Source: Clostridiales bacterium (GTDB taxonomy: Bacteria > Bacillota > Clostridia > Christensenellales > JAISNN01). Taken from it: 32,266 bases of DNA. The position numbers and the translations under genes were made by a program. The notes under the pieces are model-generated. The model was not told the DNA's origin. It saw only the letters and a program-made list of their open reading frames with translations, and ran no database searches. The stretch is taken from the NCBI GenBank assembly GCA_031273965.1, contig JAISQX010000058.1, positions 1 through 32,266 on the forward strand, read 5' to 3'. Of the stretch, positions 18,477 through 31,295 are shown piece after piece (position 1 is the stretch's first letter; each line of letters begins with the position of its first letter).

Positions 18477-18491
18477 GCCGTTTTTATAGAA

Positions 18492-18515
18492 ATTTTTGCG
18501 GTGCGCGCATAAAAT
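18492..18515 (+). repeat. Copy B of the short element flanking the vanW-family gene
   Basis: ATTTTTGCGG-t-GCGCGCATAAAAT, starting 16 nt after the vanW stop. It can fold as an imperfect hairpin, but no U-run follows. Confidence 0.6.
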
Positions 18516-18671
18516 TATAGACGGTACAGAACGCTTAAATGACAGTTTTTTTGTGCCGATTTGAGCGTGAAAAGGCTCTTTAGCGTATTGCGAGAGGCAA
18601 TGCGCTTACAGAATTCTGTAGTATATTATAATCCTTTATCCGCATACATGCGGCGGACTATTAAAAAATAA

Positions 18672-18689
18672 GGTATAAGACCGTTTTTT
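18672..18689 (+). repeat. Conserved 18-mer GGTATAAGACCGTTTTTT, copy 1
   Basis: Identical to 19702-19719. It has a weak hairpin (GGT-ataag-ACC) plus T6, so at best it is a weak terminator. Confidence 0.7.
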
Positions 18690-18724
18690 CTTTTTGTCTA
18701 TACTCTACCGATATGAAATAGGTT

Positions 18725-18754
18725 CTTGTGGTTGCGGGTTGGGAAAACCACAAG
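18725..18754 (+). promoter_or_regulatory. Inverted repeat / hairpin CTTGTGGTT-N12-AACCACAAG, module 1
   Basis: 9-bp arms at 18725-18733 / 18746-18754. The arms TTGTGGT/ACCACAA recur at 19753-19780 with an unrelated centre. Confidence 0.55.
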
Positions 18755-18811
18755 AAAGACGAAATAGCTTTTTAAAAAGCTTTCCGTCAACGGAAAAATA
18801 TATTTTTTCCA

Positions 18812-18841
18812 TTGACACGGGATTATATTATATTTTATAAT
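18812..18841 (+). promoter_or_regulatory. Sigma-A promoter, module 1 (TTGACA-18 nt-TATAAT)
   Basis: TTGACA at 18812-18817 and TATAAT at 18836-18841. It is preceded by the near-palindromic A/T tract GGAAAAATATATTTTTTCC (18792-18810). There is no ORF downstream. Confidence 0.55.
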
Positions 18842-19174
18842 TAAGAACGTAGATAGCCAACGTCGCTATTACGCACAAAAAAGCGATAGACCGGGTTTTT
18901 GGGTTTGTCACAAAAGAAGAAAGTATAACGAGAGAGCGATAACAAGCGGCAGAATCGGTTTTGTAGCCGTCTGCTATAAGACTTGTGTAGACGATATAAA
19001 TAAGAAGAAATATAAAGGAAAGAAAGCTTTTCCTTGCGCGCGTGGCTTTAGACGCGGTGGAAACCGCTTATGCGAAGAGAAGTCAGTAATTAAAGACACA
19101 AGCGGGCGGGGCAATTAAAAGACCGTACAAGCGCAATAACAGGGGATTAAGAAGGGTATAAGTACAAAAAAACA

Positions 19175-19385
19175 AAGCGGATAAGAAACGACGCATAAGA
19201 CAAAAAGGGCAAGAAAGAGACGGCGTTTCGTTGGCGGTTGCAGGGAAGCGGATAAGAAACGACGCATAAGACAAAAAGGGCAAGGAAGAGACAGCGTTTC
19301 GTTGGCTGTTGCATGGAAGCGGATAAGAAACGACGCATAAGACAAAAAGGGCAAGGAAGACGGCGTTTCGTTGGCTGTTGCAGGG
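19175..19385 (+). repeat. Three tandem direct repeats of 71, 71 and 69 bp
   Basis: The unit AAGCGGATAAGAAACGACGCATAAGACAAAAAGGGCAAG(A/G)AAGAGAC(G/A)GCGTTTCGTTGGC(G/T)GTTGCA(G/T)GG occurs at 19175, 19246 and 19317. R1 and R2 differ at 4 positions. R3 lacks 2 nt. Confidence 0.95.
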
Positions 19386-19701
19386 GAAAAAGTAATGAGG
19401 CGTACCCCCGACATACTCAAAGGCTTTTCCGTTTACGGTGGCAAAGGAAGATTCGCGGGCTCAAATAGGGAAGAGATAGAGGCGCAAACAATCTCGGCTG
19501 TGAATAAAAATTATTCGCAGTTTGAATAAGGAAGAAATAAATCCCGTTCGGGACGGCGCGTAAAGGGGTTTTTACGTTTTAGTGCAAGAATGTTTATACG
19601 CGACGAACGGTAAACGAAAAGCGCCTATAAAATCTCAAAGCGTGCGTAAAAAAGATATAGAAGCATATGATAGCGTTTAAACCCCATCGGAGGTCAAGTT
19701 C

Positions 19702-19719
19702 GGTATAAGACCGTTTTTT
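19702..19719 (+). repeat. Conserved 18-mer GGTATAAGACCGTTTTTT, copy 2 (possible weak terminator CGGT-ataag-ACCG + T7)
   Basis: Identical to 18672-18689. Here the stem is 4 bp and is followed by T7. Confidence 0.7.
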
Positions 19720-19752
19720 TAAGAAAAACTATTAATGCAAAAAAACGGCGGA

Positions 19753-19780
19753 TTGTGGTCGGAGAGGAGTGAAACCACAA
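19753..19780 (+). promoter_or_regulatory. Inverted repeat / hairpin TTGTGGT-N14-ACCACAA, module 2
   Basis: 7-bp arms identical to module 1, with the different centre cggagaggagtgaa. It ends 60 nt upstream of the -35 box at 19840. Confidence 0.55.
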
Positions 19781-19839
19781 AAAACATAGGGAAAATTGTA
19801 AAAAATATTCCGAAATGTAAAAAAAATAATATTTTTTTA

Positions 19840-19869
19840 TTGACAACAAGATAAATAAAGGTATATAAT
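19840..19869 (+). promoter_or_regulatory. Sigma-A promoter, module 2 (TTGACA-18 nt-TATAAT), likely promoter of the giant gene
   Basis: TTGACA at 19840-19845 and TATAAT at 19864-19869, preceded by a long A/T-rich UP-like tract. A second TATAAT sits at 19875-19880. Confidence 0.6.
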
Positions 19870-20277
19870 CAAACTATAATTAAATGATTAATGGGAAGAG
19901 GCTCGAATAAAATATAAGGTATAGAGCTGAAAAAATATTCTTATTGATTAGGTACGACGTAAAAAGCGAAGGAGGAATATGTAAAAATTCCGAATGGCAC
20001 TTTGACGCTGAAAAAACTGTAAAAACAAAAAAACGTCGGAGGACGACGATAAAACATGTCGCGCGCTATAAGCGAAGCGTTCGTAATTATACGATATACT
20101 TAAGACACAAGCGCGATAAACGCGCATTACGCGCGACAAGCGAAGCGGAGATATTTAAAAGCCGAAGAGTCGAATAAAAAAGCGGAGATTATCGAGGGAA
20201 AACCTCGTTGATATATAGAAACAAAAAAATTCGGTTAATGGAAACCGAAAAAACAAAAAATTGACTGGAGGTCAGAT

Positions 20278-23200
20278 ATGGGTAAGAATGGGTATGTACA
20301 GCCGGCGGTGCGCGGCGTACACGGCGCGAGAGCGCGCAAGCAAACGCTTTGGGTTTGGGCAGGTATGCTCTTTTTAAGCGTGATGTTTTTATTAGCGTTG
20401 ATGCCCGGCTACACGGGGCATTCGTACGGCGCTGCGGCGGCGGGCGGTCAGGAGATATCGGAGAGCGCCGACGACGGCGACAGCTTCGTCGCCGCGGATA
20501 AAGATATTGGCGATATGACGATAGACGAGATAATATTGTTGTTGGAAACGTCGGCGTCTTCTCCGGAGGGCGAGGTTATTTATGACGGAACCGTGCCCGA
20601 ATATGGCGGACTCACGGAGGGATCGCCTTTTTACATAGTGCTTAGTTCATTGAGAGCTATTCCGGGTATTTTGGAAATAACTATCGATATTCCGGGTTTG
20701 ACAAAGAATGCCGGTGACTATCCTTTTACTACTACCTTAAGGACTAAGCCGGGGTATACCTTTAACGAGGGAACGGCTTCGGCGAGCGATTATACGATAA
20801 ATCCGGAAAAAACCGTGATAACGATACAAAAGGAAGGCATCGAATTTCACATTAAGCCGATGATTTTGGAGCTTTCTCAAAAAACGCCGATCATATCAAA
20901 GACTTACGACGGCTATACGACTCCCGGAACCGCTTTGACTATAAGTAATTTCGGTACATACTTTGATACTCCCGCGTTAGGAGCAGGCGATACGATAGCT
21001 AACGTGTTTGACGTCGGAAGCTGCTATTATAACGATAAGGACGTGGACGACGCGGACACGTTTACGATAAATCTTTCGCTTAAGACGGATAACTATTTAT
21101 TTAAAAATGGCGTGTCGAATTTTGACTTTGACGCGAGTATAAATCCGAAAGCGATAGATTTTGAGATAATAGACGCCCAAAATAAGATATATGACGGCAA
21201 CGCTACGGCGACGCGGGGCGAGCATTTTGATTTGAAATTCAACGGCGCGCACGAAAACATATCCACAACGGATTATATCTTGGACAATGCGTTCTACAAT
21301 AATGCGAATATCGGTAAAAATAGATTTATCACCGTGCAAATCACATTGGCGGATACCAAAAAAATGCATAACTACTCGTTGCCCGTTAACGAGGTATATA
21401 CGGACGCGACGCTTGAGATTGAAACCAATATCAGAGTATCGGAAACCGAGCTGAGAGAGATAACCGACGTCTTGCTTACGGATAAAGAATCGGAATATAA
21501 CGGAATGACCAAATCCGGTATATACGACAGCGCGAAAGCCGCTATTTTTGTGATGTTGAACAAGCCGGGGTTCCCAGAGAAATTGGAAAGTATAGATATA
21601 TCTTTTGCTCCGACGAGTGTTATCGACGCGGGAACGTATACCGTAACCATAGTTATAACTCTTACCGCAGATACAATATTTTCGGACAACAAAGAGGAAA
21701 CAAGGGAATTTACCCGGGTGTTAACAATAACTCCGAAAGTGCTTACCGTTTCCGGTATAACCGCGCAAAACAAAATGTATGACGGGACAAACGTGATAAC
21801 AATAATCACGGACAGTATGAATGTAGGCGGAATAGCCGCTATCGACGATAATAATGAAGCGCTGCTTAAAGTAACGGTTAGAGGCGGCAACGGTCATACC
21901 TTGACCGCCGCTCCGGGAGTGAATAAGACAGTATTTATCGAGCTTGATATAGAGGGTTCGAGAGCGAGTAATTACAGTGACAACGCGACCGCCAACACAA
22001 CGGTGACAATAAGACCTACGGGTCAGGAGGAGCCGGTTGACAATCTTGGTACGTCGCCCAAAATAATCGGGTTAACCGTAGACGAGATAGCCGCGTTATT
22101 TGAAGGCATGGAGAGCGAGTACAACGGACTTGTGCAGAACAATCTCTATAGCGCGATAATAACATATTTACGCAGCCAAGATGGTATAGGCGACATAAAA
22201 ATATCCTTTATTGACGGCATAGAGAAAAATGCCGGAGTATATAATGTGAGGCTAACCTTAACGGCGATCGAAAATCCGGACGAGATTAATGGAAATTTGA
22301 ATCCGATAGCGTATGCCTTCAGCAACGGAGAAGCGGTGCTTGAAATAAACGTACAGTTGACTATAACCAAAAAAGCCTTGACGGTAAGCAACGTAACCGC
22401 CCAAGATAAAGAATACGACGGCAACACGGTTATCGATATGGATACGAACGCCGCGGTGTTTGACGGACAGATACCGACGGACGATTTGACTATATCGGTT
22501 GTGGGCGAAACAGGCTTTACGGCGGACGCCAGCGTGGGCAAGAATAAAAAGGTATATGTGGAACTGACTCTCGGCGGAGCGGATAGAGATAACTACTTAT
22601 TGACGGCGTTGACCGACGTCACGGCGACGATAAGACCTACGGGGCATGAGGAGCCGACGGATCTTCCGGAGACGGAGCACTTATTAGTCGGTTTAACGAT
22701 AGACGAAATAACGGCTTTGTTAGCCGATAAGAGCAGCGAATACGACGGAACCGTGCAGAGCGGATACTACAGCGACATTATAGCGTATTTGGAAAGCGTT
22801 GTCGGTATAGCGGACGTGGACGTCGAGTTTGACAACTTAAAGAAAGACGCGGGCGAATATGACGTTAGATTTACGTTAAAAGCCGACGAAGATCCCGTAA
22901 ATGAGGAAGCGTATGCCTTTAGCGACGAGGAGTCGACTCTTATCATAGACGTAAAGTTTACGGTTGAAAAGAGAGCTTTGAGAGTCACGGGCGGCATAAC
23001 CGCGTATGACAAGACTTATAATGGCGACAACGTGATACCGATCACCGAAAGCGGCGTTAGCTATGACAGAAAAATAACATGGGATGATTTGGTTGCAAGC
23101 GTCCTCGGCGGCGTAGGATATACGGACAACGCGAGCGTCGGAAAGAACAAGCCCGTGTACGTAAAGCTTAATTTTACGGGAGCCGACAGAGATAACTATA

Positions 23201-26200
23201 AGGTTGAGGCGTATGTTGACGGCGTAACGGCGACAATAAGACCGACCGGCGCGGAAGAGCCGGACGATCCGATCACGGAGTCCAAAATAGTCGAATTGAC
23301 GGTAGCCGAGATAGAAGAGACTTTGACCGGTCACAGCAGCGTATACGACGGAACCGCGCAAAGCAACTATTACGACGATATCAAAGCGTATTTGGAAAAC
23401 GTTGTCGGTATAGCGGACGTGGACGTCGAGTTTGACAACATAAGGAAAGACGTGGGCGTATACGACGTAAGAATAACCTTAACGGCGGAAGAAAACCCGA
23501 ACGGAAATCCCGCTTTTGCGTACGGATTTAGCGACGGAGAATCGACGCTTGTCATAAACACGCAATTGACGATAACAAAAAGAGAGCTGACGATAACCGG
23601 AGGCATAACCGCCGAGGACAAGACTTACGACGGTAACAATGAAATAACCGTCGCTATAGGAAGCCTGCAACAGATAGGGAAAATACCCTCGGATGATTTG
23701 CAATTTGGCGTCAAAGACGGAAAAGGTTATACGGATAACGCGAGCGTGGGAAAGAATAAACAGGTATATGTAAACCTTATTCTTTCGGGCGCGGACGCGG
23801 ACAACTACAAAGAGAAGGCGTATATAGAAAACACGACTGTAAATATATTGCCGAGCGGTGTAAATCCCGATCCGGATCCCAATCCGGATCCGTCGGACGA
23901 CAGGATAATAGACTTGACGGTGGAGGAAATAGAGGCTTTATTCACCGATAAGCGCAGCGAATATGACGGAACCGTACAGATCGGCTACTATGATGATATT
24001 AAGGACTACTTATTATCCGTGGAAGGTATAGCAAGCGTGGACGTCGTGTTTGACAACTTGAGAAAGGACGCCGGCGCATACAACGTAACTATAACGCTTA
24101 GGGCGGATGAGGACACGAACGGAAATCCCGCTTTGGCGTACGGATTTAGCGATATGGAGTCCGAGCTTGTCATAAACGCCGTATTTACGGTTGAAAAGAG
24201 AGCTTTGACGGTAACGAGCGGTATAACCGCCTACGACAAGACTTACGACGGTAACAATGTAATACAAATCGACATAAGCGTTGTGAATTTTGACAGAAAA
24301 ATAGCCAGCGACGACTTGAGTATCGACTTGAACGGCGTTAACGGCTACACCGACAACGCGAGCGTCGGAAAGAACAAACCGGTGTACGTAAAGCTTGATT
24401 TTACGGGCGCCGACAGAGATAACTATAAGATTGAGGCGTACGTCAACGACGTAACGGCAACGATAAGACCCACGGGCGTGGACATACCCGACACGAATCC
24501 CGACGACGATAGAATAATAGACGGAATTGAGGTCGAAGAAATAATCGCGCTTTTTACGGACAAGAGCAGCGAATATGACGGAACGGTACAGAACGGATAC
24601 TTTGAATCTATAAGAGCTATGCTTTTGGCTATCGAGGGAATAGGATACGTATATGTAGACTATGGCGCACTGACAAAGGACGTCGGCGTTTACGATATCA
24701 AGGTTACGGTAAAGGCGGAAGAATACCCGAACAGGAATCCCGCTTTGGCGTACGGATTTAGGAACGGAGAGTCCGAAATAGTCATAGATGCGAAATTTAT
24801 TATAACGCCGAAGATGCTAACCGTGCACGGAGTAACGGCGGAGAATAGAAAATATGACGGAACGCCCACCGTAGACCTTGAAGTGAATAACATGACGATA
24901 TCCGGAGTGATATCGGGCGATGACGTTAATGCGACGATAACGGACGCGGACACCAACAAAGATGGAATACAAGGCACCGTCGAAACCGCCGCACCCGGGA
25001 AGAACAAAACCGTCTATGTGAATTTGTCGCTTAGCGGAGCGGATTTATCTAATTACAGCATAAAGGGCATAGCCGGTACGGTAAATATAACCGTCGGAGA
25101 CACGGAACCCGATAGCTCCGAAATCATAGGATGGGACGTTGTGGACGCCATAAAATATGCCGTGACGGATATAAGAACGACGTATAACAAGACCTCGCAA
25201 AAAGATGCGTTTGACGCGTATATTGATTCGGCGATAAGAGATTATACCGATAAAGTCGTTGTCTCTTCGGTGACCTTTGACAGAGATCCTTTCAACGCGG
25301 GAGCGTATACGGCGACTATAAGAATTGAGGCGTTCAGAGATTATCAAACGGCGTATGTGTTCGGTAACGGAGAAAGCTACTTTGAGTTTGAAAGAACCTT
25401 GACAATCGACAGAAGAGAGGTTATAATTCTCGGCGTGACGACGGCTTATCCGAACAACACCAGACCGTACGACGGAACCAACGTGGTGGCGATAGTAATG
25501 CCGGGCGCTAATAATTACAGCGGAATAATAGCCGGCGACGTAATATATATCTCCGCGCCCGTAGGCAATGTCGGCTATATGGTCGACGCCAGCGTGGGAA
25601 AAAACAAGAAAGTTGAAATAAACGCCACTATAGGCGGGGCGGACGCGCATAACTACGCGCTCAGACCGATTGCGGATGTGACGGTAACCATAACGCCGAC
25701 GCAAAACCAAAACGGCGAGGACTTGATAGTCGAAATGTCGGTTGAGGAAATAGCCGCGCAGATTTCACCCCTGTCAATCGAATATGACGGAAAGGTGCAC
25801 GACTGCGCAACACTGTACGACGAGGACGCGAACGGCATTAAAGACGGAGTGTACAACACCGTGTACGCCAATCCTTTTGACGGAATAAAATACGCATTGG
25901 AAGCGGTTATCGGAATTGCGGACGCGAGGTTTGACATAGTGAGATTGTCAAAAGACGCGGGCATATATAGGGTAATCGTTACGATAACGGCGGAATCCGA
26001 TCCGCTTGTGCCTATGGCTTACGCTTTCGGTAACGGCGAATCTAAGATTTCGTTTGAAACGACCTTGACCATAACGAGAAGGCAATTGACCGTGACTTCC
26101 GGGGTAGAGGTGGAAAATAAAGTCGGCGGCAAAGGAACTAAGATTTATGACGGAAAAACCGACGTAACGCTCAATGTCGCGACTATGGCGCCTAATTGGA

Positions 26201-26799
26201 AAGGCAAAGTGGCGGAAGACGATTTGTCGCTCATGCTCATTCATAATAACGGAAAGGCGGTTGGCTATACGGCTTCTCCGAATGCCGGAAAAAACAAGGC
26301 GATAAGCGTAAAGGCTTATCTCAGCGGAGCCGATGTGAGAAACTATGACGCGAACGTTATATTGGAGGGAGTATCGGTCGATATCTTGCCGAGAGAAATA
26401 ACCGCTAAGGTTACTATCAATGAAAAAGATTACGACGGAACGACCGGCGCAACCGTAAAAGAAGTGGAATTTGACAACCTCGTGGAAGGCGAAACGTTGA
26501 TAGAGGGCGTTGACTATACTATAGAAGCTCGCTTTACGGACGAAGAACCCGGCGACGACAAGAGCGTAATAGTAACCATAAACCTCGACAATGGAAACTA
26601 TGCGTTCTCCGACGCAAATCCGATTAACGGAACGGTTACCGACGGCGGCGCACACGCGGTGTTTGAGGTTAGGGGCGGAAGAATCGTTTCTACGGGAATT
26701 AAGCTTTGGGGCTGGTTCTTACTCGGCACGGGCACATCCTTTGCGATAGGAATATTCTTGTCTTTCTTAAAGAAAAGCGGAATGATTTTGGCGGCGTAA
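20278..26799 (+). CDS. 2173-aa modular cell-surface protein with alternating MBG-like and YDG-type adhesin repeats, an N-terminal signal peptide and a C-terminal TM anchor
   Basis: GGAGG at 20267-20271, 6 nt before the ATG. The signal/TM segment is WVWAGMLFLSVMFLLALMP..SYG/AAA. The motif set xYDG(T/N)..., GKNKxVYV and GAD(R/A)xNY occurs about 11 times, alternating with SEYDGTVQ...DAGxYDV...T(I/V)xK(R/K)xLTV modules. The C-terminus is LWGWFLLGTGTSFAIGIFLSFLKKSG. The domain family names come from motif recognition only. Confidence 0.9.
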   Translation: MGKNGYVQPAVRGVHGARARKQTLWVWAGMLFLSVMFLLALMPGYTGHSYGAAAAGGQEISESADDGDSFVAADKDIGDMTIDEIILLLETSASSPEGEVIYDGTVPEYGGLTEGSPFYIVLSSLRAIPGILEITIDIPGLTKNAGDYPFTTTLRTKPGYTFNEGTASASDYTINPEKTVITIQKEGIEFHIKPMILELSQKTPIISKTYDGYTTPGTALTISNFGTYFDTPALGAGDTIANVFDVGSCYYNDKDVDDADTFTINLSLKTDNYLFKNGVSNFDFDASINPKAIDFEIIDAQNKIYDGNATATRGEHFDLKFNGAHENISTTDYILDNAFYNNANIGKNRFITVQITLADTKKMHNYSLPVNEVYTDATLEIETNIRVSETELREITDVLLTDKESEYNGMTKSGIYDSAKAAIFVMLNKPGFPEKLESIDISFAPTSVIDAGTYTVTIVITLTADTIFSDNKEETREFTRVLTITPKVLTVSGITAQNKMYDGTNVITIITDSMNVGGIAAIDDNNEALLKVTVRGGNGHTLTAAPGVNKTVFIELDIEGSRASNYSDNATANTTVTIRPTGQEEPVDNLGTSPKIIGLTVDEIAALFEGMESEYNGLVQNNLYSAIITYLRSQDGIGDIKISFIDGIEKNAGVYNVRLTLTAIENPDEINGNLNPIAYAFSNGEAVLEINVQLTITKKALTVSNVTAQDKEYDGNTVIDMDTNAAVFDGQIPTDDLTISVVGETGFTADASVGKNKKVYVELTLGGADRDNYLLTALTDVTATIRPTGHEEPTDLPETEHLLVGLTIDEITALLADKSSEYDGTVQSGYYSDIIAYLESVVGIADVDVEFDNLKKDAGEYDVRFTLKADEDPVNEEAYAFSDEESTLIIDVKFTVEKRALRVTGGITAYDKTYNGDNVIPITESGVSYDRKITWDDLVASVLGGVGYTDNASVGKNKPVYVKLNFTGADRDNYKVEAYVDGVTATIRPTGAEEPDDPITESKIVELTVAEIEETLTGHSSVYDGTAQSNYYDDIKAYLENVVGIADVDVEFDNIRKDVGVYDVRITLTAEENPNGNPAFAYGFSDGESTLVINTQLTITKRELTITGGITAEDKTYDGNNEITVAIGSLQQIGKIPSDDLQFGVKDGKGYTDNASVGKNKQVYVNLILSGADADNYKEKAYIENTTVNILPSGVNPDPDPNPDPSDDRIIDLTVEEIEALFTDKRSEYDGTVQIGYYDDIKDYLLSVEGIASVDVVFDNLRKDAGAYNVTITLRADEDTNGNPALAYGFSDMESELVINAVFTVEKRALTVTSGITAYDKTYDGNNVIQIDISVVNFDRKIASDDLSIDLNGVNGYTDNASVGKNKPVYVKLDFTGADRDNYKIEAYVNDVTATIRPTGVDIPDTNPDDDRIIDGIEVEEIIALFTDKSSEYDGTVQNGYFESIRAMLLAIEGIGYVYVDYGALTKDVGVYDIKVTVKAEEYPNRNPALAYGFRNGESEIVIDAKFIITPKMLTVHGVTAENRKYDGTPTVDLEVNNMTISGVISGDDVNATITDADTNKDGIQGTVETAAPGKNKTVYVNLSLSGADLSNYSIKGIAGTVNITVGDTEPDSSEIIGWDVVDAIKYAVTDIRTTYNKTSQKDAFDAYIDSAIRDYTDKVVVSSVTFDRDPFNAGAYTATIRIEAFRDYQTAYVFGNGESYFEFERTLTIDRREVIILGVTTAYPNNTRPYDGTNVVAIVMPGANNYSGIIAGDVIYISAPVGNVGYMVDASVGKNKKVEINATIGGADAHNYALRPIADVTVTITPTQNQNGEDLIVEMSVEEIAAQISPLSIEYDGKVHDCATLYDEDANGIKDGVYNTVYANPFDGIKYALEAVIGIADARFDIVRLSKDAGIYRVIVTITAESDPLVPMAYAFGNGESKISFETTLTITRRQLTVTSGVEVENKVGGKGTKIYDGKTDVTLNVATMAPNWKGKVAEDDLSLMLIHNNGKAVGYTASPNAGKNKAISVKAYLSGADVRNYDANVILEGVSVDILPREITAKVTINEKDYDGTTGATVKEVEFDNLVEGETLIEGVDYTIEARFTDEEPGDDKSVIVTINLDNGNYAFSDANPINGTVTDGGAHAVFEVRGGRIVSTGIKLWGWFLLGTGTSFAIGIFLSFLKKSGMILAA
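22010..25090 (+). repeat. Five tandem ~603-620-bp coding repeats (about 201-206 aa each) inside the giant gene, with weaker copies on both sides
   Basis: The module-end motif (..TIRPTG..) recurs near 22012, 22632, 23236, 23848, 24466, 25085, 25690 and 26385. Segment 22783-22836 matches 23386-23439 at 53 of 54 nt. Segments from about 23114 and about 24349 are roughly 90% identical over about 130 nt, by eye. Confidence 0.9.
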
Positions 26800-26827
26800 T
26801 AAGTGAAGGTTTAAGAATTCTTTAAAA

Positions 26828-26864
26828 GAGGCTGTTTCATGATTTGAAACAGCCTCTTTTTTTT
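26828..26864 (+). terminator. Intrinsic terminator after the giant gene
   Basis: 12-bp stem GAGGCTGTTTCA (26828-26839) / TGAAACAGCCTC (26845-26856), followed by T8. Confidence 0.9.
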
Positions 26865-27124
26865 GTTTAGGGCTACGTTTTTATATCGGAGCGCTTCTTT
26901 GTCGTTTTGGATTGAGAGCGGAGCAAATATGATAACGCATATCGACGGCTTGCTTGCTCGTAAAAAAAGCATGTTTTTATAAAAATGCCTAAAAATATCT
27001 CTTTCCGATTGTATTTTTACTATAAAACGCTTGTATTCTCGGCTTATTTGTGATAATATATTAAGGCATATTTGGATACGTTTCAACGGCGTTTTCATAA
27101 TAAGTTTTTTTTGGGAGAAAAAAG

Positions 27125-29894: not shown

Positions 29895-29984
29895 AGTAAA
29901 AGTGATTATATGTCTGTGCCGATACGGGAGCGGGCATATCCTCGGCTTATATCGCGTCGTTGCTTTAGTTGGGAGGAGAACCGC

Positions 29985-31295
29985 ATGAAGAAAAAGCTCT
30001 TATATATATTAGTTTTCTTGGTCGCTTTCGGCACGGTGATTTTGATGTTGCCATATTTCCGAAATACCGATCAGCCGAGAATGAGGTTTGTATACGCGAG
30101 CGCCATAAGCGCGGAGCACGCGACACTGCCCGGCGACGGCATAATAGACGGAGACGATTATACGGGCGGCGGAATAACGCCGGCGGACGTTGTGGAAGTA
30201 AAGTCCGGAACGAATGTCGTAAGCTATAAGCTTGTGCTTAGCGGCGCGCAAAATTACATCCTATTGAACGATATTATTTTACCGGCAAAACCCTTTACCA
30301 TAGAGGGCTTGAGCGCGGGGCAGATATTTAACGGAAACGGCTACAAAATCGACGGCGTTGTCATTAGACACGGGCTTGTAAGTAAAAATACGGGAACGAT
30401 CAAAAATCTTATAATCGGAGCGGGTTGCGTCGTTACGGGCGCGGCTGTAGCCGAAGAGAACTTAGCGAGCGGCGTTATTCTCAACGTAAAAAATTACGCG
30501 TCGGTCGCGCCTTATGTCTATACCGTGACGAGCGGCAACGTAAAGACCGAATACAGCATCGCCGGCGGATTGGTTTTTGACAATTACGGTACGATATCCG
30601 GTTGCGACAATTTCGGCGTCGTCAACGGTAACGGCGGAATAGCCCAAATCAATAAAGAGGGCGGATTGATTACAAACTGCGGCAATGAGGGCAGGATAAC
30701 CGGCGCAAAAGCGAACGCCGGAGGAATAGCCGGAGAAAATTACGGAAAAATAGAGAAGTCGTCCAACGGCGGCGCCGTTGATATGAAGGCAAAGGAAGCC
30801 GGCGGAATAGCCGGAATCTCGCACGGAGTCATTGACGACTCTGAAAACTATGAAACGGCGACGGTTGCGGGCGTGAGCAGCGCGGGCGGAATAGCCGGTT
30901 TATTTAAAGGCGAGATAAGCAATTGCCGTAACTACGGACTGATAAAAGCGACGGGAAGCGCCGGCGTGGCGGGCGGAATAGCCGGCAAATCGGTTTCGTC
31001 GGACAGCAAAATCACCGCTTCAAAGAATACCGCCGTCGTCATAGGCGATACGTCAAAGGGTATTTTGGGAAGCGGAGAAGCCAAACTTGAGAATGTCGTC
31101 AATTACGGAAGACTCAACGGCAAAACCGAGTTGACGGTACAGATAGACGAATTCCTTGAAAAAACAAAGATTATCATTATGGCAATCGTCGCGGCGGGCG
31201 TTGTCGCGGCTATGATTTCGATAGGAAAAGATCGGTATAAAACTATAAGAGACAGACGAGCGGAGATAGAATCCGTGCTTAATTACGGCGCTTAG
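29985..31295 (+). CDS. GLUG-motif repeat surface protein with N- and C-terminal TM segments
   Basis: I prefer the ATG at 29985 (GGGAGGAG at 29971-29978) over the track's 29910. The N-terminal TM is [18 protein letters not shown]. There are at least 6 repeats of N(Y/F)GxIxxxxNxGxV...(A/G)GGIAG. The C-terminal TM is [18 protein letters not shown]. Confidence 0.85.

What the first reader, a model, noticed from the sequence alone, without database searches (positions are those of the whole stretch)
20278..26799. 2173-aa modular adhesin-like protein anchored by a C-terminal TM helix rather than a sortase signal
The protein is built almost entirely from alternating ~100-aa modules. One type runs (SEYDGTVQ..GIADVDVEFDNLKKDAGxYDV..AYxFSDGES..T(V/I)xKRxLTV). 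The other runs (..DKTYDGNNVI..GYTDNASVGKNKPVYV..GADRDNYK..ATIRPTG). These resemble the MBG/YDG domains of Gram-negative haemagglutinin-type adhesins. There is no LPXTG-type motif, no recognisable SLH, CWB2, choline-binding or LysM wall-binding domain, and no catalytic domain. It ends instead in one hydrophobic helix followed by KKSG. The neighbouring GLUG protein (29985-31295) has the same topology of an N-terminal signal/TM plus a C-terminal TM. A tail-anchored, rod-like stalk of about 19 Ig-like modules would be an unusual surface architecture for a Firmicute.
Basis: partly seen in the sequence, partly recalled or inferred. Interest (0 to 1): 0.6.

Follow-up and report, generated by a model that had tools for sequence, protein, structure and literature searches.

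The report
Membrane-anchored giant YDG-repeat surface protein
This is a real 2173-residue surface protein of an uncultured Clostridia bacterium, a rod of about 20 Ig-like modules held in the cell membrane by one C-terminal helix, but this anchoring is the usual one for such proteins in related bacteria where no sortase was found, so it is fairly ordinary.

Summary
ORF 20278-26799 is intact (2173 aa), with an RBS upstream and a strong terminator downstream. It has a signal-peptide-like N-terminus. It contains 9 divergent MBG-like modules and 11 YDG modules (Pfam YDG E 1e-93, 10 stretches), then one hydrophobic helix (residues 2143-2164) and the tail KKSGMILAA. No LPXTG, wall-binding or catalytic domain was found.

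An AlphaFold2 model of one module pair (pLDDT 88.9) shows two tandem beta-sandwiches. Foldseek matches them to tandem Ig-like domains.

The interpretation needs correcting in three ways.
- With an N-terminal signal it is a type I (stop-transfer) membrane protein, not a "tail-anchored" one.
- C-terminal hydrophobic-tail anchoring is a recognised Gram-positive class (Listeria ActA; LocateP "C-anchored").
- It is not unusual in this lineage. No sortase was found in 6 of 6 genomes of the genus, and every YDG paralogue I checked there ends in a TM helix.

Across 121 genomes of the order, YDG proteins carry a PxTG-type signal in 7 of 10 cases from genomes with a sortase and in 0 of 36 cases from genomes without one. 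Of those 36, 29 end in a plain TM helix.

The neighbour's "GLUG" label has no HMM support (E = 2), although its two-helix topology is real.

Verdict: a new member of a known kind. The ligand is unknown. The scan had not reported this architecture on other DNA.

The parts
20267..20271 (+). Ribosome-binding site GGAGG, 6 nt upstream of the ATG
   Evidence: read directly from the sequence
20278..26799 (+). Whole gene, 2173 codons plus stop
   Evidence: the window's own protein is in the database as a 2144-aa call starting at M30 (P0002)
20278..20436 (+). Signal-peptide-like N-terminus (residues 1-53). Basic n-region RGVHGARARKQ, h-region residues 23-43, small-residue c-region HSYG/AAAAGG
   Evidence: hydropathy (most hydrophobic segment of the protein); the cleavage site is inferred, no predictor was run
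20509..20862 (+). Module 1, MBG-like (A type), divergent, distal tip
20863..21147 (+). Module 2, degenerate YDG-like (not reached by the HMM)
   Evidence: KTYDG...DNY by eye; absent from the HMM hits
21148..21444 (+). Module 3, YDG
   Evidence: 21142-21384, E 2.7e-10
21445..21735 (+). Module 4, MBG-like (A type)
21736..22047 (+). Module 5, YDG
   Evidence: 21730-21981
22069..22371 (+). Module 6, MBG-like (A type)
   Evidence: MBG E 0.046
22372..22647 (+). Module 7, YDG (best Pfam stretch, residues 697-777)
22690..22974 (+). Module 8, MBG-like (A type)
   Evidence: MBG E 0.036
22975..23250 (+). Module 9, YDG
23293..23583 (+). Module 10, MBG-like (A type)
23584..23856 (+). Module 11, YDG
23911..24201 (+). 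Module 12, MBG-like (A type); modelled
   Evidence: AF2 model: beta-sandwich with two short helices
24202..24471 (+). Module 13, YDG; modelled
24523..24810 (+). Module 14, MBG-like (A type)
24811..25095 (+). Module 15, YDG
25117..25425 (+). Module 16, MBG-like (A type, TTYNKT variant shared with the paralogue on contig C32)
25426..25701 (+). Module 17, YDG
25732..26103 (+). Module 18, MBG-like (A type, with a 22-residue insertion)
26104..26388 (+). Module 19, YDG
26389..26637 (+). Module 20, membrane-proximal YDG variant (LVEGETLIEGVDY), conserved in the C32 paralogue
26704..26769 (+). C-terminal transmembrane helix, residues 2143-2164 LWGWFLLGTGTSFAIGIFLSFL
   Evidence: Kyte-Doolittle 1.69; Hessa-type sum +0.67 against a next-best internal value of +5.8 and a median of 19.9; WGW start conserved in the paralogue; AF2 draws a single helix over 2142-2166 at low confidence
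26770..26796 (+). Short cytoplasmic tail KKSGMILAA
   Evidence: positive-inside rule (established knowledge)
26824..26870 (+). Intrinsic terminator: 16-bp-stem hairpin plus T-run

Best explanation
The gene is monocistronic and encodes a Sec-exported, type I membrane-anchored surface fibril of an uncultured, apparently monoderm Clostridia bacterium.

**Proposed mechanism**
1. The N-terminal signal peptide starts export.
2. About 2090 residues are threaded out of the cell. They fold into about 20 Ig-like beta-sandwich modules: 9 lineage-specific MBG-like modules alternating with 11 YDG modules.
3. Translocation stops at the single C-terminal hydrophobic helix (residues 2143-2164). Its KK-led tail stays in the cytoplasm.
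4. The protein therefore sits in the cytoplasmic membrane and is not linked to peptidoglycan by a sortase. No sortase was found in this genus.
5. At roughly 4 nm per Ig-like module, the stalk would be some 70-90 nm long. That is long enough to cross the wall and present the divergent N-terminal modules at the tip for adhesion or cell-cell or particle contact.

**Shown:** the ORF, the modules, the fold of one module pair, the hydropathy profile, the failure to find a sorting motif or a sortase, and the pattern across the lineage.

**Inferred:** signal-peptide cleavage, actual membrane retention, stalk length, and the adhesive function and its ligand.
For: **Gene and domains**
- Intact ORF with RBS and terminator.
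- YDG E 9.9e-94 with 10 stretches, and no other Pfam or NCBIfam family.
- The A-type modules are weakly MBG-like. Profile hits elsewhere carry MBG_2, MBG_3 or YDG domains.

**Structure**
- AF2 model of residues 1212-1404: pLDDT 88.9, pTM 0.79, two beta-sandwiches.
- Foldseek matches it to tandem Ig-like domains: chitinase 4hmc linker domains at E 5e-4, plus LdtMt2 BIg domains, cadherins, titin and the RTX-adhesin extender 6xi1.

**Topology**
- Only two TM-grade segments exist, one at each end.
- The helix is followed by KK.

**No sorting machinery found**
- No sortase in the window's genome or in the 5 other genomes of the genus, 3 of which are at least 90% complete.
- No exosortase.
- No Omp85 in the window's genome or in 3 same-genus genomes, and no SLH in the window's genome.

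**Lineage pattern**
- The other YDG proteins examined in the window's genome (contigs C32, C190, C161, C42) have a C-terminal TM helix with a cytoplasmic tail. So do all twelve same-genus YDG frames whose C-terminus was read.
- Across the order, anchor type follows sortase status: 7 of 10 against 0 of 36 proteins with a PxTG-type motif. Counted by family this is 6 of 8 against 0 of 11.

**Taxonomy and literature**
- The nearest RNase R sequences are "MAG: Clostridiales bacterium" at 61-66% identity.
- Hydrophobic-tail anchoring is an accepted class (PMC4010754, PMC2375117).
Against: - It is rich in Gly, Thr and Ser.
- No dedicated TM or signal-peptide predictor was available.
- The AF2 model of the C-terminus is poor (pLDDT 38.6).
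- The window's genome is only 69% complete, so the failure to find a sortase rests on its relatives.
- The sequence IVSTG sits 4 residues before the helix. This is the geometry of relatives' xPxTGD-x5-W sorting signals, so a cryptic or decayed signal cannot be fully excluded.
- No ligand-binding head domain, no expression data and no orthologue were found. The best relatives outside the window's own genome are 25-36% identical, so the adhesive function is by analogy only.
Confidence: 0.75

Rival explanations
1. The C-terminus is a cryptic or decayed cell-wall sorting signal (IVSTG, then a hydrophobic domain, then KK). The protein is cleaved and covalently attached to the wall by a transpeptidase that was missed. 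Alternatively, the sequence is an evolutionary relic of such a signal that now works only as a membrane anchor.
For: The layout has three parts, with TG 4 residues before a Trp-led helix and a basic tail. This resembles relatives' xPxTG[DEH]-x(5-8)-W signals. The window's genome is only 69% complete.
Against: - There is no Pro in the motif.
- The paralogues and same-genus proteins have no TG at that position.
- No sortase was found in 6 of 6 genus genomes, and no exosortase.
- There is no NCBIfam sorting-domain hit at E <= 10.
- Many relatives from genomes without a sortase carry cytoplasmic tails of 50-350 aa, which do not fit a cleaved signal.
Confidence: 0.07
2. The protein is not stably retained. 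The weak C-terminal helix fails to stop transfer, or is clipped by a protease, and the rod is shed as a secreted or matrix protein.
For: Hydrophobicity is marginal. The tail has only two positive charges. The AF2 model of the C-terminus has low confidence.
Against: The helix is the only hydrophobic outlier besides the signal peptide. Its position, its Trp start and its basic tail are conserved in the paralogue and in same-genus proteins. Of 36 related proteins in genomes without a sortase, 29 keep a C-terminal TM helix, which argues for selection on retention.
Confidence: 0.1
3. The ORF's length or repeat number is an assembly artefact. Repeats may have collapsed or expanded in the metagenome-assembled genome, so the stated architecture is not the real gene.
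For: The genome is a 215-contig MAG. The gene contains DNA repeats with a period of 603-618 bp.
Against: The repeat copies are only 62-88% identical at the DNA level, which is too diverged for collapse. The frame is open for 6.5 kb, with an RBS and a terminator.
Confidence: 0.05

Closest known systems
YDG domain-containing giant surface proteins of Gram-positive gut bacteria (for example the Gemmiger formicilis protein P0108, and the unnamed metagenomic proteins P0023, P0026 and P0031)
   Same: They have tandem YDG (PF18657) repeats mixed with MBG-type modules, are 2000-3800 aa long, and have an N-terminal signal. P0023, P0026 and P0031 also end in a plain TM helix with a basic tail.
   Different: Identity is only about 25%. 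The Gemmiger protein has an MPQTGD sortase signal and beta-helix head domains. Here the MBG-like module is a lineage-specific variant with two extra helices; only the protein itself and its paralogue reach E <= 1e-30 among 1.84 billion representatives.
C-terminal hydrophobic-tail surface proteins of Gram-positive bacteria (Listeria monocytogenes ActA and about 10 predicted others; the LocateP class "C-anchored")
   Same: They have a Sec signal, a large ectodomain, a single C-terminal TM helix and positive residues, and no LPXTG. They are retained in the membrane while reaching through the wall (PMC4010754, PMC2375117).
   Different: There is no sequence relationship. ActA is 639 aa and largely disordered, whereas this protein is a 20-module Ig-like rod. 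Here the lineage appears to have no sortase at all.
Filamentous haemagglutinin / TpsA-type and autotransporter adhesins of Proteobacteria that carry YDG and MBG repeats
   Same: They share the YDG repeat family and an extended, non-catalytic repeat stalk (many hits carry PF05860 and PF13018 together with YDG).
   Different: This protein has no TPS secretion domain (PF05860). No Omp85/TpsB was found in the window's genome or in its genus. Export is through Sec, with a membrane anchor rather than an outer-membrane partner.
Adhesin-like proteins of gut methanogens (Methanobrevibacter ruminantium M1)
   Same: They are large, repeat-rich surface proteins. A subgroup of 14 is predicted to be held by a C-terminal TM domain in an organism that makes almost no use of sortase (PMC2812497).
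   Different: They are archaeal, with a pseudomurein wall and unrelated repeat families.

Membership tests
YDG domain proteins (Pfam PF18657) | HMM match above the gathering score (25 bits) | tested here: met
   308 bits, E 9.9e-94, 10 stretches; 10 separate genomic hits over the cut-off
MBG domain (Pfam PF17883, PF18676, PF18887) for the SEYDGTVQ-type module | HMM match above the gathering score (23.3 bits for PF17883) | tested here: not met
   4 of 11 modules hit PF17883, best E 9e-4; about 15 bits in the copies scored singly, which is sub-threshold. There were no MBG_2 or MBG_3 hits. The fold is an Ig-like sandwich, so it is MBG-like but not a demonstrated member.
Sortase-anchored LPXTG proteins | LPXTG-type motif just upstream of the hydrophobic domain and basic tail | tested here: not met
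   Regex scan found no motif. Only IVSTG, without Pro, is present. NCBIfam found nothing at E <= 10.
Sortase-anchored LPXTG proteins | A sortase (PF04203) encoded in the genome | tested here: not met
   No sortase in any of the 6 genomes of the genus, 3 of which are at least 90% complete. The control genomes gave hits.
C-terminal hydrophobic-tail ("C-anchored") Gram-positive surface proteins | N-terminal Sec signal, a single C-terminal TM segment with positive residues on the cytoplasmic side, and no sorting motif | tested here: met
   Hydropathy and charge layout; conservation in paralogues. Shown by sequence features only.
C-terminal hydrophobic-tail ("C-anchored") Gram-positive surface proteins | Experimentally shown membrane retention with a surface-exposed ectodomain | not testable with these tools
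   Needs fractionation, surface shaving or immuno-EM.
True tail-anchored (TA) membrane proteins | No N-terminal signal, a cytosolic N-domain, and post-translational insertion of the C-terminal helix | tested here: not met
   The strongest hydrophobic segment of the protein is an N-terminal signal-like h-region preceded by 5 basic residues.
Two-partner-secretion haemagglutinins (TpsA) | N-terminal TPS domain (PF05860) and an Omp85-family TpsB partner | tested here: not met
   No PF05860 in the protein. No Omp85 in the window's genome or in 3 same-genus genomes.
Non-covalent wall-binding proteins (SLH, CWB2, LysM, choline-binding) | Presence of one of these Pfam domains | tested here: not met
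   The Pfam scan of the whole protein returns only YDG. No SLH was found anywhere in the window's genome.
GLUG-motif proteins (PF07581), for the neighbour at 29985-31295 | HMM match above 20.5 bits | tested here: not met
   9.4 bits, E = 2. AGGIAG-type repeats are visible by eye only.

The most novel reading that the evidence does not exclude
In Clostridia lineages of this order where no sortase was found, giant YDG/MBG fibrils have switched to type I membrane anchoring as a class. This may have happened by decay of former sorting signals; IVSTG-x3-W in this protein may be a relic. Many of them have acquired long cytoplasmic tails of 50-350 aa, some with PKAPK repeats. This would form a direct transmembrane link between an extracellular fibril and the cytoplasm, working like a receptor or cytoskeleton tether. 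For this particular protein the tail is only 9 residues, so at most the anchor-switch part would apply.
Probability: 0.12. Interest if true: 0.6.

Novelty: new member of a known kind. Interest (0 to 1): 0.33.

Why it matters
The protein is probably one of the main surface structures of an uncultured gut-type Clostridia lineage, so it is a candidate for adhesion or aggregation and for strain-level surface variation.

The more general point came from following it up. Within one order, YDG giants carry sortase signals in genomes with a sortase and plain TM anchors in genomes without one. This is a practical rule for annotating surface proteomes of uncultured Firmicutes: a missing LPXTG does not mean the protein is not surface-anchored.

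The finding does not open a new mechanism. Both the repeat family and the anchoring mode are already known.

Tried and rejected
- **The search for related loci in genome contigs:** gave only one Bacteroidetes MAG fragment. The window's genome is masked, so the organism name is unknown.
- **PDB sequence search** with the two-module profile: no hits at E <= 1.
- **AF2 of the C-terminal 231 aa** with a 2-row alignment: poor model (pLDDT 38.6). Only the helix over 2142-2166 is drawn with moderate confidence, so I treated it as weak evidence.
- **Synteny:** upstream of rnr in four same-genus genomes there is no giant gene. The locus is not conserved, and there is no full-length orthologue in the genus.
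- **Rfam and tRNA scans of the window:** nothing found.
- **hhalign of the A-type profile against the YDG-type profile:** no homology beyond the YDG strand (probability 0.5%). I therefore rejected the idea that the two module types are close paralogues.
- **Exosortase, Omp85 and SLH searches:** all negative. I rejected PEP-CTERM-like sorting, a diderm envelope and S-layer anchoring.
- **Literature search for the bacterial "YDG domain" or "MBG domain":** essentially nothing relevant.
- **TpsA/haemagglutinin membership:** rejected because there is no TPS domain.

Full report
**1. The observation**

The window holds an uninterrupted + strand ORF at 20278..26799 that encodes 2173 aa. GGAGG lies 6 nt before the ATG. 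A 16-bp-stem hairpin with a T-run sits at 26824-26860, directly after the stop codon. With the long non-coding stretch upstream, the gene looks monocistronic. The public gene call for the same protein starts at M30 (2144 aa; P0002). The upstream ATG has the RBS and supplies a basic n-region, so I keep 20278 as the start.

**2. Composition**

Pfam finds one family only, YDG (PF18657): E 9.9e-94, 308 bits, 10 stretches. NCBIfam finds nothing.

Cutting the sequence at its 19 Y[DN]G motifs, and adding one degenerate TYNK copy, gives 20 modules.
- Nine are of the "SEYDGTVQ...KDAGxY...AYxFxNGES...LTV" type, called A here.
- Eleven are of the YDG type, called B here. Ten of these are seen by the HMM in the genome search.
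- The order is A-B-B-(A-B)x8-B. The alternation is strict except for a B-B doublet at each end.

On its own the A module reaches only sub-threshold MBG (PF17883) scores: 4 of 11 copies, best E 9e-4, about 15 bits against a 23.3-bit cut-off in the copies scored singly.

A profile of the A module was searched against 1.84 billion representative proteins. It finds 185 proteins at E <= 1e-3, but only the protein itself and its paralogue in the same genome at E <= 1e-30. Four of the weaker hits were scanned; each carries YDG and/or MBG_2/MBG_3 repeats (MBG_2 sub-threshold in one). I read the A module as a lineage-restricted, MBG-like variant.

A and B are not detectably homologous to each other beyond the YDG strand (hhalign probability 0.5%).

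At the DNA level the central A+B units repeat with a period of 603-618 bp at 62-88% identity. This points to old internal duplications rather than assembly collapse.

**3. Fold**

I modelled residues 1212-1404 (one A plus one B) with AlphaFold2, using an alignment of the 9 internal pairs and 2 pairs from the paralogue. The model has pLDDT 88.9 and pTM 0.79. It shows two beta-sandwich domains, with the A domain carrying two short helices.

Foldseek against the PDB returns tandem Ig-like arrays:
- the Ig-like linker domains of Moritella chitinase 4hmc (E 5e-4);
- the BIg domains of LdtMt2;
- cadherins and titin;
- the extender repeats of an RTX adhesin (6xi1).

No solved structure is found by sequence. 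The "rod of Ig-like modules" reading is therefore supported. The estimated length of about 70-90 nm is my inference from about 4 nm per domain.

**4. The two ends**

Two segments stand out in hydropathy.
- The N-terminal h-region (residues 23-43) is preceded by RGVHGARARKQ.
- Residues 2143-2164 (LWGWFLLGTGTSFAIGIFLSFL) form a 22-residue uncharged stretch between K and KK.

The next-best internal segment scores +5.8 and the median is 19.9. The C-terminal helix is thus TM-grade but marginal.

The last 70 residues hit no NCBIfam sorting domain even at E <= 10. No LPXTG-like pattern exists. An AF2 run on the last 231 residues was poor (pLDDT 38.6), but it draws residues 2142-2166 as one helix.

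Because the protein has a signal-like N-terminus, the correct term is a type I, stop-transfer-anchored protein, not a tail-anchored one.

**5. The organism and its anchoring machinery**

The window is contig C169 of a 1.43-Mb, 215-contig MAG that is 69% complete. RNase R from the window is closest to "MAG: Clostridiales bacterium" sequences at 61-66% identity, followed by other Clostridia at 50% or less.

The following were searched for and not found:
- Omp85, in the window's genome and in three same-genus genomes that are at least 90% complete;
- SLH, in the window's genome;
- exosortase;
- sortase, in any of the six genomes of the genus.

Within the order, sortase is patchy and varies family by family: 63 of 121 genomes have it.

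**6. The topology is the rule in this lineage**

- In the window's genome, the other YDG proteins (C32, C190, C161, C42) all have an N-terminal hydrophobic segment and one C-terminal TM helix. The cytoplasmic tails are 10-127 aa long.
- A crude survey finds 11 ORFs of this topology in the genome, none with an LPXTG-like motif. The neighbour at 29910-31295 is one of them.
- Same-genus YDG proteins end the same way, often with a Trp at the outer boundary of the helix.
- The WGW start of the helix is conserved between this protein and its C32 paralogue.

I then located YDG proteins in the 121 sampled genomes of the order. I fetched 46 C-termini and classified them.

| Genome group | Proteins | PxTG / xTG[DEH] motif + helix + basic tail | Plain C-terminal TM | No TM in last 450 aa |
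|---|---|---|---|---|
| Sortase found | 10 | 7 | 3 | 0 |
| No sortase found | 36 | 0 | 29 (tails 0-351 aa) | 7 |

By family this is 6 of 8 against 0 of 11 (Fisher p about 1e-3). Relatives are not independent, so the p-value is only indicative.

Database homologues show both solutions. P0023, P0026 and P0031 have a TM helix only. P0029 and the Gemmiger group have VPQTG or MPQTG.

**7. What is known**

C-terminal hydrophobic-tail anchoring is a textbook category of Gram-positive surface proteins.
- Ten such proteins are predicted in Listeria monocytogenes, and ActA is the characterised example (PMC4010754).
- LocateP has a "C-anchored" class (PMC2375117).
- Gut methanogens have adhesin-like proteins with C-terminal TM domains (PMC2812497).

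I found no literature on the bacterial YDG or MBG domains themselves.

**8. Mechanism and rivals**

Best reading (0.75): Sec export, stop-transfer at the C-terminal helix with KK inside, and an extended Ig-like stalk that crosses the wall with its divergent N-terminal modules distal. An adhesive or aggregation role follows only by analogy with YDG/MBG adhesins. No ligand-binding head, no orthologue and no conserved neighbourhood were found.

Rivals:
- A cryptic or decayed sorting signal (0.07). IVSTG lies 4 residues before the helix and mimics the geometry of relatives' signals. However, it has no Pro, the paralogues have no TG there, and no sortase was found.
- Shedding because the helix is weak (0.10).
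- Assembly artefact (0.05).

**9. The neighbour**

ORF 29985-31295 does have an N-terminal and a C-terminal helix. Pfam Glug scores only 9.4 bits, E = 2. AGGIAG-like repeats are visible by eye only.

**10. Verdict**

The protein is a new, highly diverged member of the YDG-repeat surface proteins and uses a known anchoring mode. That mode is the norm in the lineages of this order where no sortase was found. The scan's earlier notes on this window concern the promoter region and the DNA repeats. No earlier report of this architecture on other DNA was found. Interest is modest.

Noticed in passing
L047 (G072:C1:344190-359006) and L055 (G098:C3:90173-103504): Two giant YDG proteins (frames of 4839 and 4344 aa) from genomes of the same order in which no sortase was found. 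After their single C-terminal TM helix they carry cytoplasmic tails of about 110 aa, rich in (K/E)PKAPKAPK repeats. Other relatives have tails of up to 351 aa.
   Followed up: partly
G029:C27, G038:C35, G096:C1, G121:C1, G036:C4: Extremely long YDG-containing open frames of 12526, 7750, 6832, 6304 and 6118 aa. Three of them lie in genomes of only 0.9-1.0 Mb (family f32), where one gene would take about 2% of the genome.
   Followed up: no
order-wide tallies: YDG proteins are more frequent in genomes where no sortase was found (24 of 58) than in genomes with a sortase (10 of 63) in the sampled order. Fisher p is about 0.002, without correction for relatedness.
   Followed up: partly
window 29985-31295: A 436-aa protein with an N-terminal TM or signal, a Gly-rich AGGIAG-type repeat core (Pfam Glug only E = 2, weak hexapeptide-like hit) and a C-terminal TM helix followed by a 20-27-aa basic tail. 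It has the same membrane topology as the giant protein.
   Followed up: partly
window 18477-20277: A 1.8-kb stretch without ORFs lies upstream of the giant gene. It has no Rfam or tRNA hits. Earlier notes of the scan describe a duplicated promoter cassette and 71-bp tandem repeats here.
   Followed up: no
L018 (G004:C41:48148-51393), frame after the YDG gene: A collagen-like Gly-X-Y repeat ORF (GPQGPAGVSGPQGPSGPSGATGATG...) lies immediately downstream of a TM-anchored YDG protein in a same-genus genome. The window's genome has a Gly/Ser/Asn-rich 1627-aa frame on C144.
   Followed up: no
window 26389-26637 and L015 (own contig C32): The membrane-proximal YDG module has a distinct, well-conserved signature (L[VK]EGETL.EGVDY.I.A). 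It is shared with the paralogue and also appears in the sortase-signal protein P0029. It may be a specialised basal module.
   Followed up: no
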